A DNA stretch of 64,000 nucleotides. It comes from a virus. The stretch spans positions 22,020 to 86,019 of IMG/VR virus record IMGVR_UViG_3300033388_007160; one strand, given 5' to 3'. Within the stretch, counting starts at the first letter, position 1. Each line of letters starts with the position of its first letter. Made by a program: the position numbers and the translations under genes. The notes beneath the pieces are model-generated. The model saw only the letters and a list, made by a program, of their open reading frames with translations. It had not been told where the DNA came from and searched no databases. Below, one piece after another: positions 46,237 to 55,086 of the stretch.

Positions 46237-46265
46237 AGTATACCGCGCTAACGCCTCGCCCAAAC
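46237..46265 (-). promoter_or_regulatory. Repeated phage promoter motif
   Basis: GTTTGG-N14-CGGTATACT. Confidence 0.55.
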
Positions 46266-52506: not shown

Positions 52507-52536
52507 AGTATACCATGCAGGATAGGCCGGTTAAAC
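52507..52536 (-). promoter_or_regulatory. Repeated phage promoter motif
   Basis: GTTTAA-N15-TGGTATACT. Confidence 0.6.
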
Positions 52537-52537
52537 A

Positions 52538-52612
52538 TGGTGGCCCCGACGGGATTCGAACCCGTGTTACCGCCTTGAAAGAGCGGCGTCCTAGCCACTA
52601 GACGACAGGGCC
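52538..52612 (-). tRNA. tRNA-Glu (UUC)
   Basis: Full cloverleaf; anticodon loop CTTTCAA; GGTTCGAATCC; encoded CCA. Confidence 0.95.
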
Positions 52613-52621
52613 ACCATCGGC

Positions 52622-54124
52622 TTATTCGAGGACAGGCCCTTCTGGCCCTTCCCAGTTTTCGATCACATCAACCAACTTATCCCAAACGAGGATGACCTTG
52701 AAGATGTTATCATTGAAGCCGCCGATGTCAAGAATGCGTGGATTCTGCGGCAGGTCGCTGGTGCCGTATGGGGCCAAGCAGACATTGACTACCCGAAGCT
52801 CCGGATTAAGGCCCAGAAGCTTTTTGATAGCCTCCCCCGCGTAGCCCCAGCTACCTGGCAACCAGGACTGCTCATCCGTAAGTATCACCACATAGTCAAG
52901 CTGGTTAGCATAGGCTGCTACCTTCTCAATGGCCTCGGCCAAATTGGTGCCACCGCCATCAACGTAAATCTGCTTGAAGATGTCATATGTTCGACTGGAG
53001 CGGCTGACTTTGCATTGTTGGGCCCCAGTGCCATAGCTGATTATCACGCCATTCTGAGCCTTCTTGAACGCTGCAGCAGCAAACAATCGGGCCACATCAA
53101 CCCGGCTGACCATTGACCTTGCACTCAAGAAGCCCAACATGCTGCCGCTCGTATCCACAAGCACACCTACACGGCCCAGTGAAGGCACATTGTCTGTTGC
53201 TATTTCTATGGCTTCAATCAGGGCGTCTTCGGCTTCCTGCTTGGCAGCCAAACTGATGTTCTCGTCTTCCAACTGCTGCACGCTTGCCAAGGCAGCCAGG
53301 AAACGGAACGGCATAATCTTGGGATGTCGGGCTGCTGCCAGAACTTTTTCTCTGTCAATTGGCACATTATGTTTAAGCAAGTTGCGCAGGTTGCGAATAT
53401 AAGCCATGGGCGGCATGATTTCAGCAGCCCTCATCCAAGTCTCATGGTTGCTGCCATAAGCGCTGATAAGAGATTCCCAAGTGGTGGCCTTGCCTTCCGC
53501 GTGGGCCTTAATCTCCTCAGGCGTATCTTCACCAACCTTGCCGGTTACAATCCACCTGAATGCGGCGGCCTGGGCTGCATCCTTGGGCTTCGGGTGAATA
53601 ACGTTCAGCACATCAACAAGGCTCCATTCGCGAGTTTTGCCACGATATTTGATAATCTCATACGGCGTCAAAGCTTGTAGCCTCTTGGCAATTGCTCTTC
53701 GCAGGGCCATAGGGATGGGGCCGCCATATACCTCTTTATATATAGCCAGTACTTCAGCGGGTTCATCGGCCCGTGCCATGATAACCGGCCCCCACTTGGC
53801 AACCCATGGCTTAGGTGCACATTCGTGGACTGGGTGCCCTGCCATCACAGCCAGCAAGAACTGCGGGGCCGTCCTCATGCCAAGTTCATGACGCAGCCAT
53901 GCAGCCAGCTTCAGCACGAATTCGGGGTCTTTGGTCCCAACTTCCAGCGCCAGATTCTTGATGGCCTCAGTGACTTCATGTTTGGTTGCGTAGAAGGTAT
54001 CTTCAAAGAAGTGTGTGGCACACCGCAGTGCCAGCTCCAGCTTGGGTGGATACTTGTAGGCCGGAGCCCCTTCATAGTTGACTGTCTTGCCTGCAGCCCG
54101 CTTAGGCTTGTTGAACTTAGCCAT
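52622..54124 (-). CDS. Ro60/Rsr TROVE-vWA RNA-binding protein
   Basis: NYEGAPAY; FVLKLAAWLRHELGMR; RADE; DVLNVIHPKP; TWES.IS; MAYIRNLRN; PFRF; vWA DTSGSM, GGTN and LTDEQ. Confidence 0.93.
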   Translation of the reverse strand: MAKFNKPKRAAGKTVNYEGAPAYKYPPKLELALRCATHFFEDTFYATKHEVTEAIKNLALEVGTKDPEFVLKLAAWLRHELGMRTAPQFLLAVMAGHPVHECAPKPWVAKWGPVIMARADEPAEVLAIYKEVYGGPIPMALRRAIAKRLQALTPYEIIKYRGKTREWSLVDVLNVIHPKPKDAAQAAAFRWIVTGKVGEDTPEEIKAHAEGKATTWESLISAYGSNHETWMRAAEIMPPMAYIRNLRNLLKHNVPIDREKVLAAARHPKIMPFRFLAALASVQQLEDENISLAAKQEAEDALIEAIEIATDNVPSLGRVGVLVDTSGSMLGFLSARSMVSRVDVARLFAAAAFKKAQNGVIISYGTGAQQCKVSRSSRTYDIFKQIYVDGGGTNLAEAIEKVAAYANQLDYVVILTDEQSWLPGSWGYAGEAIKKLLGLNPELRVVNVCLAPYGTSDLPQNPRILDIGGFNDNIFKVILVWDKLVDVIENWEGPEGPVLE

Positions 54125-54143
54125 CGAAATTCGTCCTCCTTTC

Positions 54144-54182
54144 AAAATAAAAAGCGCCGTCCCGCACGATGCGAGACGACGC
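54144..54182 (-). terminator. Intrinsic terminator/attenuator immediately upstream of the Ro60 RBS
   Basis: GCGUCGUCUCGCA-UCG-UGCGGGACGGCGC, 13 bp with 2 G.U, plus UUUUUAUUUU. Confidence 0.85.
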
Positions 54183-54219
54183 CCCGTCTATGGGCTGAGA
54201 GCCCGGAGGTTGAATGCTA

Positions 54220-54293
54220 TTGGCACGAGAATAACGACAACGGCACGGTTCAGCTCCAAAGGCTGAAGTAACCGTTGTCTCGCATCGTGCCAA
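54220..54293 (-). ncRNA. Y-RNA-like element, proximal
   Basis: Ends pair (GGCACGA/UCGUGCC); internal loop UGCGA; helix GACAACGG/CCGUUGUC; GGUUACUUC motif shared with the distal copy; adjacent to Ro60. Confidence 0.75.
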
Positions 54294-54318: not shown

Positions 54319-54416
54319 GCGCGTAGAGTATATTGGTTGCGGTACTTTTTCCAGCCGCCTCAATGGCGGAACCGGATTTCGAGTCCGGAAGTAACCGCAA
54401 CCTCGCAGCTACGCGC
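54319..54416 (-). ncRNA. Y-RNA-like element, distal, YrlA-like
   Basis: GCGCGUAG/CUACGCGC; UGCGA; GGUUGCGG/CCGCAACC; T-arm-like CCGGA-CUCGAAA-UCCGG; 5' end 7 nt from a -10 box. Confidence 0.8.
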
Positions 54417-54422
54417 AGGTTT

Positions 54423-54451
54423 AGTATACCACAATGCAGGCAATTCTAAAC
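54423..54451 (-). promoter_or_regulatory. Promoter of the Y RNA-Ro60-tRNA operon
   Basis: GTTTAG-N14-TGGTATACT. Confidence 0.75.
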
Positions 54452-54465
54452 ACTGGTGAAGCAAA

Positions 54466-55086
54466 GTGCTGGCTATAATCAGTTTGGCTCTGTCTTTAGC
54501 CCAAGCGCCCAACTTGGCACTCATCTACCATACCGACAGGCTTTTCAGTTACCGCCTCGTGGCCGACCGGCCCCTGCCCAAAGGCAGCCTGCTTATCCTT
54601 ATTACTAAGAGTCCCCTGCAGGCCACCGGCCCCGCTTTGAGCTGGAAGAAAACGATTTACTTCGGCAGCATTGCTGCTTGGCGAAAGACAGACGAACGAA
54701 TCAGACGTTATTACCAGTCATTCGACGTAACGACGTGCTATCCGGCCAGGCTGGGCAAGATTTTCTGGGTTCTTGCCACACCTTCTGGTTGTTGGTGGGG
54801 CGTTTGCTGGGGGCCATGCAGTCCGATGCGGTATAATAGTTTTGGGCACGCGAGTGGGCTCGGCGGCGGGGAGAGCCGATGTGCGCCCCGCTGCACGCGG
54901 GTTCGAATCCCGCCGTGTCCACCAGCGTTCAAGTTTGTGAACAGGCCCAGCAGGGTAAACTCTCCACGAAATGAAGAGGAAGGTTCAGCGAATCATCAAT
55001 GCCCTCAACCGCTGGTGGGAACTGCGCCGGTTCCCCGAGAGGCTGAAGTATCAACGTTTTCTGGAGCGCAATCTCTTCAATCTTGA
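54466..55086 (+). CDS. Possible secreted protein; true 3' end probably before ~54830
   Basis: Signal-peptide-like N-terminus; C-terminal part overlaps an RNA gene and the next ORF. Confidence 0.3.
   Translation: MLAIISLALSLAQAPNLALIYHTDRLFSYRLVADRPLPKGSLLILITKSPLQATGPALSWKKTIYFGSIAAWRKTDERIRRYYQSFDVTTCYPARLGKIFWVLATPSGCWWGVCWGPCSPMRYNSFGHASGLGGGESRCAPRCTRVRIPPCPPAFKFVNRPSRVNSPRNEEEGSANHQCPQPLVGTAPVPREAEVSTFSGAQSLQS
54844..54924 (+). ncRNA. Mini tmRNA-like RNA, tRNA-like domain only (copy 2)
   Basis: GGGCACG/CGTGTCC acceptor with G3.U70; no D-stem; 8-bp helix; GCGGG-TTCGAAT-CCCGC; ACCA; TATAAT at 54832-37. Confidence 0.8.

What the first reader, a model, noticed from the sequence alone, without database searches (positions are those of the whole stretch)
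54124..54293. Y RNA wired as an antiterminator: candidate Ro60-sensing transcription attenuator
Seen in sequence, on the minus-strand transcript: promoter, Y-like RNA 1, Y-like RNA 2, intrinsic terminator (54144-54182), RBS, Ro60 ATG. The 5' strand of Y RNA 2 (GCACGAUGCGAGACAACG, 54290-54273) contains the conserved UGCGA loop. It is complementary at 17 of 18 positions to 54181-54164 (CGUCGUCUCGCAUCGUGC), which covers the terminator's 5' arm, loop and part of its 3' arm. The two folds exclude each other. Established: Ro60 binds the stem formed by a Y RNA's 5' and 3' ends. Inference: bound Ro60 locks the Y fold, the terminator forms and only Y RNAs are made. Without free Ro60, the antiterminator forms and Ro60 plus tRNA-Glu are transcribed. 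This would be an autoregulatory switch that balances Ro60 and Y RNA levels. I know of no description of it.
Basis: partly seen in the sequence, partly recalled or inferred. Interest (0 to 1): 0.93.

Follow-up and report, generated by a model that had tools for sequence, protein, structure and literature searches.

The report
Y-RNA/terminator switch before phage Ro60
In an uncultured 86-kb phage, the strong transcription stop signal between two Y RNA genes and the gene for their partner protein Ro60 can instead pair almost perfectly with the Ro60-binding strand of the second Y RNA, so Ro60 may limit its own synthesis through its partner RNA; this is plausible, untested, and so far seen only in this phage lineage.

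Summary
On the minus strand lie one promoter, two Y-type RNAs, a 16-bp intrinsic terminator, an RBS, Ro60 (TROVE+vWA) and tRNA-Glu. The 5' strand of Y2 (54290-54273) is complementary at 17 of 18 positions to the terminator's 5' arm, loop and first three 3'-arm bases (54181-54164). No shuffle of 2000 reached this. It is unique in the genome, and an outlier among 9 terminator-like hairpins and 28 Y modules from 15 loci. No promoter lies between terminator and ATG, so Ro60 depends on read-through.

At equilibrium, Y fold plus terminator beats the antiterminator by about 12 kcal/mol, and Y2 closes 40 nt before its competitor appears. A partial antiterminator of 11-14 bp is the minimum-energy fold only while the 3' end lies at 54166-54158. 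Getting there needs invasion through the UGCGA loop, which is the presumed Ro60 contact.

The only close relatives are a 96%-identical Ro60 contig and read variants. They keep both partners but give no decisive covariation. About 35 other Ro60 loci lack the design.

Earlier unchecked notes of this scan report similar leaders in other phages. I rate a Ro60-sensing attenuator at about 0.4 and a plain leaky terminator at about 0.35.

The parts
54423..54450 (-). Sigma-70-type promoter TTTAGA-16 nt-TGgTATACT. It is the only recognisable promoter for the Y1-Y2-Ro60 unit, and the expected start (about 54416) is the first base of Y1.
   Evidence: 9 of 12 matches with an extended -10. One search shows the TGGTATACTAA motif only here, at 52515 and, with one mismatch, at 46245 in the whole genome. 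It is conserved in L003.
54319..54416 (-). Y-like RNA 1. Basal stem GCGCGUAG/CUACGCGC, internal loop CUGCGA / AAUAUACU, second stem GGUUGCGG/CCGCAACC, then UUACUUC and an apical domain with a T-arm-like hairpin.
   Evidence: Fold; module table. In L003 the apical domain is replaced by a short hairpin while the stems are kept.
54222..54291 (-). Y-like RNA 2 (70 nt). Stem GGCACGA/UCGUGCC, internal loop UGCGA / GUUAUUC, stem GACAACGG/CCGUUGUC, UUACUUC and an apical hairpin. In the switch model it acts as the anti-antiterminator.
   Evidence: -33.4 kcal/mol alone. L003 carries a compensatory A-U to G-C change in the upper stem.
54273..54290 (-). 5' strand of Y2 (lower stem, UGCGA motif, upper stem). 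It is the presumed Ro60 contact and the 5' half of the candidate antiterminator.
   Evidence: The motif is compared with GNCGAAN0-1G and with Ro60's preference for the 5' strand in PMC4201824.
54192..54209 (-). Spacer holding CCUCC (54209-54205), complementary to the SD, followed by a small variable hairpin.
   Evidence: in the read-through transcript the SD is fully paired with CCUCC, in both the window and L003. The hairpin next to it varies between haplotypes.
54164..54181 (-). 3' half of the candidate antiterminator. It comprises 12 of the 13 core bases of the terminator 5' arm, the UCG loop and the first 3 bases of the 3' arm, and is 17/18 complementary to 54290-54273.
   Evidence: It is identical in L003, and no change is listed in the read variants.
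54144..54185 (-). Intrinsic terminator: GGGGCGUCGUCUCGCA-UCG-UGCGGGACGGCGCUUU followed by a U-rich tail.
   Evidence: 16 pairs, 9 G-C; -25.6 kcal/mol. It is one of only three strong terminators in the genome.
54135..54139 (-). Shine-Dalgarno GGAGG, 10 nt before the ATG and 4 nt after the U-tract.
52622..54124 (-). Ro60 homologue of 500 aa, with a TROVE domain and a Ro60-type vWA domain.
   Evidence: PF05731 at 3.2e-14, PF25045 at 9.2e-08; 29.7% identity to the phage phiLo Ro60 over 95% of the query, E 3e-40.
52538..52612 (-). tRNA-Glu(UUC), starting 10 nt after the Ro60 stop codon.
   Evidence: (Rfam tRNA, 66.5 bits).

Best explanation
The leader is a candidate autogenous transcription attenuator in which a working Y RNA doubles as the sensor.

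Shown: one promoter drives Y1, Y2, a strong intrinsic terminator, Ro60 and probably tRNA-Glu, so Ro60 is made only from read-through. The inner 5' arm, loop and first 3' bases of the terminator are a near-perfect complement of Y2's Ro60-binding 5' strand. Either Y2 plus terminator forms, or the antiterminator does.

Inferred mechanism:
1. Y2 folds first.
2. When the terminator's 5' arm emerges, its UCGCA can pair with the single-stranded UGCGA internal loop of Y2, which serves as a 5-nt toehold.
3. It then displaces Y2's 7-bp lower stem. The result is a 12-14-bp helix stacked on Y2's intact upper stem.
4. This helix holds the nucleation site of the terminator hairpin while the polymerase crosses the U-tract, and Ro60 mRNA is made.
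5. If Ro60 already sits on the UGCGA motif and stem of the nascent Y2, the toehold is covered, the terminator forms and only Y RNAs are produced.

After read-through the RNA relaxes to Y2 plus terminator hairpin, which is the thermodynamic minimum.

The net effect would be negative feedback that matches Ro60 to its Y RNAs.
For: - Significance: 17/18 complementarity, never reached in 2000 shuffles, where the maximum was 12. It is unique in the genome. It is an outlier among the genome's 9 terminator-like hairpins and among 28 Y modules.
- Position: the complement includes the 5-nt loop, which Y2's own 3' strand does not pair with. It also runs past the hairpin arm into the loop and 3' arm. Simple descent from a Y 3' strand, or pairing by way of the 3' arm, therefore does not explain it (sequence).
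- Promoters: none lies between terminator and ATG.
- Folding: for 3' ends at 54166-54158, the minimum-energy fold has 11 antiterminator pairs on an intact upper stem and is 4-5 kcal/mol better than native Y2. L003 behaves the same way, with 12-14 pairs.
- Conservation: both partner strands are kept in the L003/X3 haplotype. No change is listed for them in the X1 haplotype, whose tables are cut. The spacer, the apical loops and the number of Y RNAs all vary.
- Published background (PMC4201824): Ro60 contacts mainly the 5' strand at a GNCGAA-like motif and stabilises the stem.
- Translation: the SD is paired with a conserved CCUCC in the terminator state and largely free in the forced antiterminator state.
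Against: - Energetics: Y2 plus terminator is about 12 kcal/mol more stable than the full antiterminator at 37-50 C, and still 10 kcal/mol more stable at 60-70 C.
- Order of folding: Y2 (-33.4 kcal/mol) closes about 40 nt before its competitor is transcribed.
- Barrier: the nested refolding path costs about 18 kcal/mol. The switch therefore needs a pseudoknot-type toehold invasion that these tools cannot model.
- Spacing: in L003 a whole extra Y RNA (117 nt) lies between the partners. This argues against tight kinetic tuning.
- Variation: the only substitution in the helix (A to G in L003) is compensated inside Y2 but merely tolerated as G.U by the terminator arm.
- Comparison: there is no independent lineage. 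About 35 other Ro60 loci, including phiLo and a 635-kb phage with a terminator 35 nt before Ro60, lack the complement.
- Experiment: no binding, termination or expression data exist.
Confidence: 0.4

Rival explanations
1. Plain partition terminator. The hairpin simply ends a Y1-Y2 gene pair, so Y RNAs are made in excess, and a fixed unregulated fraction of polymerases reads through into Ro60 and tRNA-Glu. The complementarity to Y2 has no regulatory role. It would be a by-product of how the terminator arose in a tandem array of recombining Y modules, for example by template switching or inverted copying of the Y2 5' strand. It would then be retained only because both partners are constrained for their own reasons.
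For: - The equilibrium fold and the order of folding both give Y2 plus terminator without any protein.
- A Y-like region, then a terminator, then Ro60, without any complement, occurs in an unrelated 635-kb phage.
- The Y array is recombinogenic: Y3 is present or absent, with junctions in the similar 3' ends.
- The terminator 3' arm UGCGGGACGGCG resembles a Y 5' strand UGCGAGACAACG.
- Inserting Y3 between the partners is tolerated.
Against: - An 18-nt, 17/18 complement is far beyond chance.
- It is better matched to Y2 than the 5' arm is to its own 3' arm, which has 2 G.U pairs.
- It covers the loop motif and extends beyond the arm, which a relic of a direct Y copy would not give (the central CGA would need all three bases changed to UCG).
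- Ro60 has no other promoter. A 16-bp stem with a U-tract would leave very little expression without some relief.
Confidence: 0.35
2. The complementarity is functional but does not sense Ro60 in cis. Three versions are possible:
(a) Free mature Y2 pairs in trans with nascent leaders.
(b) The long helix forms in read-through RNA and guides processing, for example double-strand cleavage that separates the Y RNAs from the mRNA.
(c) Ro60 binds the Y-5'-strand-like 3' arm of the terminator (UGCGGGAC) and thereby favours read-through, which would be positive feedback.
For: - The same pairing evidence applies as for the main explanation.
- The 3' arm shares 9 of 12 bases with the Y2 5' strand (sequence).
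- Published work suggests Ro60 recognises mainly the 5' strand and may not need a helix (PMC4201824).
- Y RNAs upstream of rsr are processed from precursors in M. smegmatis and D. radiodurans.
Against: - Mature Y2 is folded, so its 5' strand is no more available in trans than in cis.
- An 18-bp helix with a mismatch is short for a typical double-strand nuclease site, and at equilibrium it does not form.
- Binding to the 3' arm would have to beat hairpin closure within a fraction of a second.
- No data bear on any of the three versions.
Confidence: 0.15
3. The inverted repeat acts at the DNA level, as an operator or recombination site, or is a chance match.
For: The 18-bp repeat is an inverted repeat in the DNA, with 91 bp between the arms.
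Against: - Chance is excluded at the level of the shuffles.
- Both arms lie inside transcribed, structured RNA elements.
- A 91-bp spacing is unusual for operator half-sites, and no DNA-binding gene is linked to it.
Confidence: 0.05

Closest known systems
YrlA/YrlB and Yrn1/Yrn2 Y RNAs encoded upstream of rsr (M. smegmatis, D. radiodurans), and Yrl1/Yrl2 of Thermus phage phiLo (PMC4201824; PMC12135203)
   Same: - Two or more Y RNAs lie immediately upstream of Ro60 on the same strand.
- Each has a basal stem formed by its 5' and 3' ends, with an internal loop carrying a GNCGAA-like motif on the 5' strand.
- One member carries a T-arm-like hairpin.
- The module S1-UGCGA-S2-UUACUUC...S2'-loop-S1' is shared with actinobacterial loci, and the stems covary.
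   Different: - In those systems the Y RNAs are described as processed from precursors. My full-text searches of both papers found the word 'terminator' in neither.
- Here a 16-bp intrinsic terminator separates Y2 from Ro60, and its 5' half is the complement of the Y2 5' strand.
- The Rfam YrlA model does not score these RNAs.
L20-dependent attenuation of the B. subtilis infC-rpmI-rplT operon (PMC1865079, seen) and PyrR-dependent attenuation of the pyr operon (own knowledge)
   Same: The control is autogenous. An RNA-binding protein binds a leader structure, whose stabilisation prevents an antiterminator and allows an intrinsic terminator in front of its own gene. The arrangement has three parts: anti-antiterminator, antiterminator and terminator.
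   Different: - Here the sensor would not be a dedicated leader mimic but a bona fide, released partner RNA.
- The anti-antiterminator is very stable without protein, so the antiterminator is not the default fold and would need toehold invasion.
- Nothing has been shown experimentally.
Y-like RNA, terminator and Ro60 leaders noted earlier in this scan in other phage genomes (e1-5401662, e1-5870457, e1-5941537, e1-6024869, e1-3753721)
   Same: The layout is the same: Y-type RNA, intrinsic terminator, then a Ro60 gene without its own promoter. Several of these notes report alternative pairing between a Y strand and the terminator.
   Different: - They are other genomes, and some involve different pairing partners (in two notes the 3' strand or tail of the Y RNA).
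- One follow-up found that the switch failed in folding.
- These are unchecked AI notes that I could not verify here.

Membership tests
Ro60 / TROVE protein | TROVE (HEAT-repeat ring) domain followed by a Ro60-type vWA domain | tested here: met
   PF05731 at 53.4 bits against a cut-off of 23, and PF25045 at 32.6 bits against a cut-off of 27.7; 29.7% identity over 95% of the query to the phage phiLo locus whose Ro60 structure is published (PMC12135203).
Bacterial/phage Y RNA (YrlA type, Rfam RF02553) | Score above the curated threshold of the Rfam covariance model | tested here: not met
   There is no RF02553 match, even at E<=10 on 311 nt or E<=1 on 8 kb. For comparison, actinobacterial Y RNAs next to Ro60 also stay below the 69-bit cut-off (53, 30 and 29 bits).
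Bacterial/phage Y RNA (YrlA type, Rfam RF02553) | Long stem formed by the 5' and 3' ends with an internal loop, kept by covariation | tested here: met
   Across 28 modules from 15 loci, S1 and S2 differ in sequence but keep at least 6/7 and 7/8 pairs. L003 Y2 has a compensatory A-U to G-C change.
Bacterial/phage Y RNA (YrlA type, Rfam RF02553) | GNCGAAN0-1G motif near the 5' end (PMC4201824) | tested here: inconclusive
   Y1 and Y2 carry UGCGAG, which matches 4 of the 6 positions of GNCGAA. Actinobacterial relatives carry UGCGAA or UGCGCA at the same place.
Bacterial/phage Y RNA (YrlA type, Rfam RF02553) | Encoded next to Ro60 | tested here: met
   Y2 ends 98 nt before the Ro60 ATG, on the same strand and under the same promoter.
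Bacterial/phage Y RNA (YrlA type, Rfam RF02553) | tRNA-like domain (T and D arms) in at least one Y RNA | tested here: inconclusive
   Y1 has a hairpin CCGGA-CUCGAAA-UCCGG that resembles a T arm. No tRNA or YrlA model matches it, and L003 Y1 lacks it.
Bacterial/phage Y RNA (YrlA type, Rfam RF02553) | Bound by Ro60 | not testable with these tools
   This needs EMSA or co-purification.
Protein-dependent transcription attenuator (anti-antiterminator / antiterminator / terminator) | Intrinsic terminator in the leader, with no promoter between it and the regulated gene | tested here: met
   The U-tract ends 19 nt before the ATG.
Protein-dependent transcription attenuator (anti-antiterminator / antiterminator / terminator) | Antiterminator helix that excludes both the terminator and the protein-binding hairpin | tested here: met
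   17/18 complement, -29.9 kcal/mol.
Protein-dependent transcription attenuator (anti-antiterminator / antiterminator / terminator) | Antiterminator forms by default when the protein is absent | tested here: inconclusive
   It is not the equilibrium fold (+12 kcal/mol). A partial form is the MFE only for 3' ends at 54166-54158. The nested barrier is about 18 kcal/mol, and toehold kinetics cannot be computed here.
Protein-dependent transcription attenuator (anti-antiterminator / antiterminator / terminator) | Alternative pairing conserved with covariation in homologous leaders | tested here: inconclusive
   Only near-identical relatives carry the element, with a single A-to-G change that gives G.U. 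It is absent from about 35 other Ro60 loci.
Protein-dependent transcription attenuator (anti-antiterminator / antiterminator / terminator) | Read-through responds to the regulator | not testable with these tools
   No RNA holder is listed for this phage. In vitro transcription is needed.

The most novel reading that the evidence does not exclude
A released, functional Y RNA also serves in cis as the sensor of a transcription attenuator. Its Ro60-binding internal loop is the toehold through which the downstream terminator arm invades. Free Ro60 switches off its own gene by occupying the nascent Y RNA, which sets the protein-to-RNA ratio of a phage Ro60 RNP.
Probability: 0.4. Interest if true: 0.8.

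Novelty: new variant of a known kind. Interest (0 to 1): 0.6.

Why it matters
How cells or phages balance Ro60 against its Y RNAs is not known. My search of the held open-access library found no account of Ro60 controlling its own synthesis or of a Y RNA acting as a cis regulator.

If the switch is real, it would add Ro60 to the RNA-binding proteins that autoregulate by attenuation, such as L20 and PyrR. There would be a twist: the sensor is the true partner RNA rather than a mimic, and the protein-binding loop is the strand-invasion toehold.

It would also give a simple, mutable assay for Ro60/Y RNA recognition in a phage system. If it is not real, the locus is still a clean example of a phage Ro60 RNP operon in which a strong terminator sets Y RNA excess over Ro60.

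Tried and rejected
The contigs of the 43-49% identical Ro60 proteins P0002-P0007 could only be reached through the metagenome scan.
- Protein-based scans of viral contigs found no close relative.
- The Y-motif scan of viral contigs gave 98 stretches, almost all of them chance matches.
- The genome scan returned only the L003 contig again, binned as an Aenigmatarchaeota MAG, plus actinobacteria.
- Rfam gave no Y RNA hit.
- Sequencing runs: no RNA holder is listed. Three DNA runs hold small shares, and the RNA run laid had no contig on the stretch. This says nothing on expression.
- The tables of laid contigs are cut ('9 more' and '14 more' rows not shown), so absence of changes in the X1 haplotype is not proven.
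- I looked for terminators and for complements in about 35 other Ro60 loci: metagenomic, actinobacterial, phiLo, crAss-like, Vibrio, Xanthomonas, Rhizobium, Microcystis, Caulobacter and Brevundimonas phages, and a 635-kb phage. None has the design.
Their leaders lack U-tract terminators.
- The direct-path barrier ignores pseudoknotted intermediates, so it cannot decide the kinetics. A stochastic co-transcriptional simulation was judged too slow for the script box and was not run.
- Rejected, a separate promoter for Ro60: none was found.
- Rejected, other targets of the Y2 strand in the genome: none with up to 4 mismatches.
Full report
**Context.** The window is part of a complete 86,019-bp virus record with direct terminal repeats. 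GC content is 53%. Sigma-70-like promoters, Shine-Dalgarno sites, intrinsic terminators and a tRNA-like mini-tmRNA point to a bacterial host. The nearest relative's contig was binned into an Aenigmatarchaeota MAG, which is probably a binning artefact.

**Anatomy (minus strand).**
- A promoter, TTTAGA-16 nt-TGgTATACT (54450-54423), places the start at about 54416, the first base of Y1.
- Y1 runs from 54416 to 54319 and Y2 from 54291 to 54222.
- Both have the plan S1 - (C)UGCGA - S2 - UUACUUC ... apical part ... S2' - 7-8-nt loop - S1'.
- A 40-nt spacer follows, with CCUCC and a small hairpin.
- Next comes an intrinsic terminator (54185-54151, 16 pairs, 3-nt loop, UUUUUAUUUU; -25.6 kcal/mol).
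- Then come GGAGG (54139-54135) and the ATG at 54124 of a 500-aa protein with TROVE and Ro60-type vWA domains.
- tRNA-Glu(UUC) begins 10 nt after the stop codon.
- The whole leader folds far better than shuffles (z = -7.4). Its MFE shows Y1, Y2 and the terminator.

**Are these Y RNAs?**
- The Rfam YrlA model (RF02553) does not match them. Clear actinobacterial Y RNAs next to Ro60 also stay under its threshold.
- A direct comparison is more telling. The same module, with UGCGA/UGCGC followed by a stem and (U/C)UAC(U/A)UC, and a 3' strand closing both stems, was found in 28 RNAs from 15 Ro60 loci. The stems differ in sequence but stay paired.
- Chen et al. 2014 describe a GNCGAAN0-1G motif near the 5' end as the likely Rsr contact. 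They note that Ro60 binds mainly the 5' strand and that binding stabilises the stem (PMC4201824). UGCGAG is a near match to that motif.
- Two Y RNAs upstream of Ro60 is a known layout in M. smegmatis and D. radiodurans, and in phage phiLo (PMC12135203).

**The observation.**
- 54290-54273 and 54181-54164 pair at 17 of 18 positions, with 14 contiguous pairs, an A.C mismatch, then 3 more pairs. Duplex energy is -29.9 kcal/mol.
- In 2000 dinucleotide shuffles of the leader, the best complement with one mismatch averaged 6.9 and never exceeded 12.
- The sequence occurs nowhere else in the genome, even allowing four mismatches.
- The other eight terminator-like hairpins of the genome have upstream complements of 6-8.
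- The Y modules of other RNAs and loci have downstream complements of 6-9. Only window Y2 (17) and L003 Y2 (14 contiguous) stand out.
- The complement spans most of both Y2 stems and also the UGCGA loop, which Y2's own 3' strand (GUUAUUC) does not pair with. It runs through the terminator loop into the 3' arm. It therefore blocks the nucleation site of the terminator hairpin.

**Does Ro60 depend on read-through?** Yes, as far as sequence shows. Only 19 nt separate the U-tract from the ATG. No promoter-like site lies between Y1 and the ATG on this strand. The phage's distinctive TGGTATACTAA -10 element occurs only at 54431, at 52515 (after the tRNA) and, with one mismatch, at 46245.

**Energetics.**
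- For the Y2-to-terminator RNA, the MFE (Y2 plus terminator) is -71.2 kcal/mol, against -59.3 kcal/mol with the full antiterminator forced. The gap is 12 kcal/mol at 37-50 C and 10 kcal/mol at 60-70 C.
- Y2 alone is -33.4 kcal/mol and is complete 40 nt before the competing strand appears.
- Growing the transcript shows that for 3' ends at 54166-54158 the MFE changes. Y2's lower stem opens, and GCACGAUGCGA(G) pairs with the new strand (11 pairs) on top of the intact upper stem. This fold is 4-5 kcal/mol better than native Y2.
- From 54155 onward the terminator wins. L003 behaves the same way, with 12-14 pairs.
- The best nested path between the two states has a barrier of about 18 kcal/mol, which is too high for sub-second refolding. 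That model forbids pairing of the loop with the incoming strand while the lower stem is still closed, which is the toehold route a real RNA could take.
- The switch is therefore physically conceivable but is not the default outcome of the folding model.

**Relatives.**
- Viral-contig scans found no close relative.
- The protein database holds one 96% identical protein and a group at 43-49%.
- L003 (the same contig as L126) has the same promoter, Y1 with a different short apical part, Y2, an additional Y3 (117 nt), the same spacer motif and the same terminator.
- Between the two haplotypes, Y2's upper stem changed A-U to G-C. The terminator arm kept U opposite that position (A-U becomes G.U). 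The terminator's 3' arm changed G to A opposite another U.
- Both partner strands are otherwise identical, while the spacer hairpin, the apical loops and the Y copy number differ.
- Contigs from three DNA runs show the L003 type and at least one further haplotype without Y3. No listed change falls in either partner strand, but those tables are cut.
- This is conservation without informative covariation, and both strands have reasons of their own to be conserved.
- The 42-51% group has Y modules 0.4-1.2 kb upstream but no terminator before Ro60.
- The design is also absent from actinobacterial loci and from phages of Thermus, Nitratidesulfovibrio, Xanthomonas, Bacteroides, Microcystis, Vibrio, Caulobacter, Brevundimonas and Rhizobium.
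- A 635-kb phage has a terminator 35 nt before Ro60 but no complement.
- The 'complementarity in homologous loci' test can therefore neither support nor refute the idea. The element is lineage-specific.

**Origin.**
- The terminator's 5' arm resembles Y2's 3' strand at both ends (CGUCGUC...UCGUGC against CGUUGUC...UCGUGC). Its 3' arm resembles a Y 5' strand (UGCGGGACGGCG against UGCGAGACAACG). Descent from Y material in a recombining array is therefore likely.
- Descent alone does not explain two things. The former loop segment is now the exact complement of UGCGA. The central triplet is UCG, where a direct copy would have CGA.
- An inverted copy made by template switching would explain everything without selection, and I cannot exclude it.

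**Weighing.**
- Points for a real switch: the size and placement of the complement, the dependence of Ro60 on read-through, the autogenous logic, the transient MFE, and the coupled SD/anti-SD pattern.
- Points against: the stability and early closure of Y2, the tolerated 117-nt insertion in L003, and the lack of any independent comparative or experimental support.
- I put the Ro60-sensing attenuator at 0.40, an unregulated leaky terminator with incidental complementarity at 0.35, other functions of the pairing at 0.15, and a DNA-level role or chance at 0.05. The remaining 0.05 is unassigned.

**Literature and earlier notes.**
- A full-text search for Ro60 or Y RNA together with attenuation, antiterminator, terminator or autoregulation found no description of such control.
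- The closest mechanistic precedents are L20-dependent attenuation of infC-rpmI-rplT (PMC1865079) and PyrR (own knowledge).
- Earlier unchecked notes of this scan report Y-RNA/terminator/Ro60 leaders with alternative pairings in several other phage genomes. Two claim compensatory changes, and one reports a negative folding result.
- I could not verify any of these and do not count them as evidence. They suggest the layout deserves a systematic survey.

Noticed in passing
window 54205-54209 and 54135-54139 (minus strand): CCUCC in the spacer is predicted to pair with the Ro60 Shine-Dalgarno GGAGG, bracketing the terminator hairpin. The probability that the SD is unpaired is about 0 in the read-through transcript. 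The pairing is kept in L003, and the SD is largely free in the forced antiterminator fold. This may be a translational layer, but a 5-nt match is weak on its own.
   Followed up: partly
L003:2783-2899 (same contig as L126): The 96%-identical relative carries a third Y RNA between Y2 and the terminator, and a Y1 whose tRNA-like apical domain is replaced by a short hairpin. The deletion/insertion junctions lie in the similar 3' ends of the Y RNAs, so the Y array recombines.
   Followed up: partly
window 54844-54924 (+): An 81-nt RNA matches only the tRNA-like ends of the tmRNA model (51.1 bits, above the gathering score), on the opposite strand about 400 nt upstream of the Y promoter. It is already covered by earlier notes of this scan.
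   Followed up: no
window 52507-52534 (minus strand): A second promoter with the same TGGTATACTAA extended -10 starts directly after tRNA-Glu and drives the next gene (52470-51904, no Pfam match). The motif occurs only three times in the genome.
   Followed up: partly
window 52704-52731 (minus strand): The best promoter-like match of the region (TTGACA-16 nt-TAACAT with TG, 10 of 12) lies inside the 3' end of the Ro60 ORF, about 90 nt before tRNA-Glu. The tRNA may therefore not depend on terminator read-through.
   Followed up: no
L126 (QMZP01000018.1): The relative's 9.8-kb contig is filed as a Candidatus Aenigmatarchaeota MAG, although its promoters, SD sites and terminator are bacterial in style. 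This is probably a phage contig mis-binned into an archaeal genome.
   Followed up: no
L004:2651-2740 and L004:1765-1859; L005:181-276; L008:1639-1723: In the AT-rich relatives (Ro60 42-51% identical), Y modules end with their basal stem directly followed by a run of 5-7 U. The Y RNA's own closing stem may serve as its 3'-end signal there.
   Followed up: no
L131:1888-1935: In a Nonomuraea genome, a -26.9 kcal/mol hairpin between the last Y RNA and Ro60 contains the GGAAGGAG ribosome-binding site in its 3' arm and ends at UUUCUCAUG. This is a different possible way of gating Ro60 after Y RNAs.
   Followed up: no
L139:1120-1172: An uncultured 635-kb phage has a 12-bp-plus terminator hairpin with U8 located 35 nt before its Ro60 start, preceded by GGCGAAG and AUACUUCG motifs. 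No complement to upstream sequence was found.
   Followed up: partly
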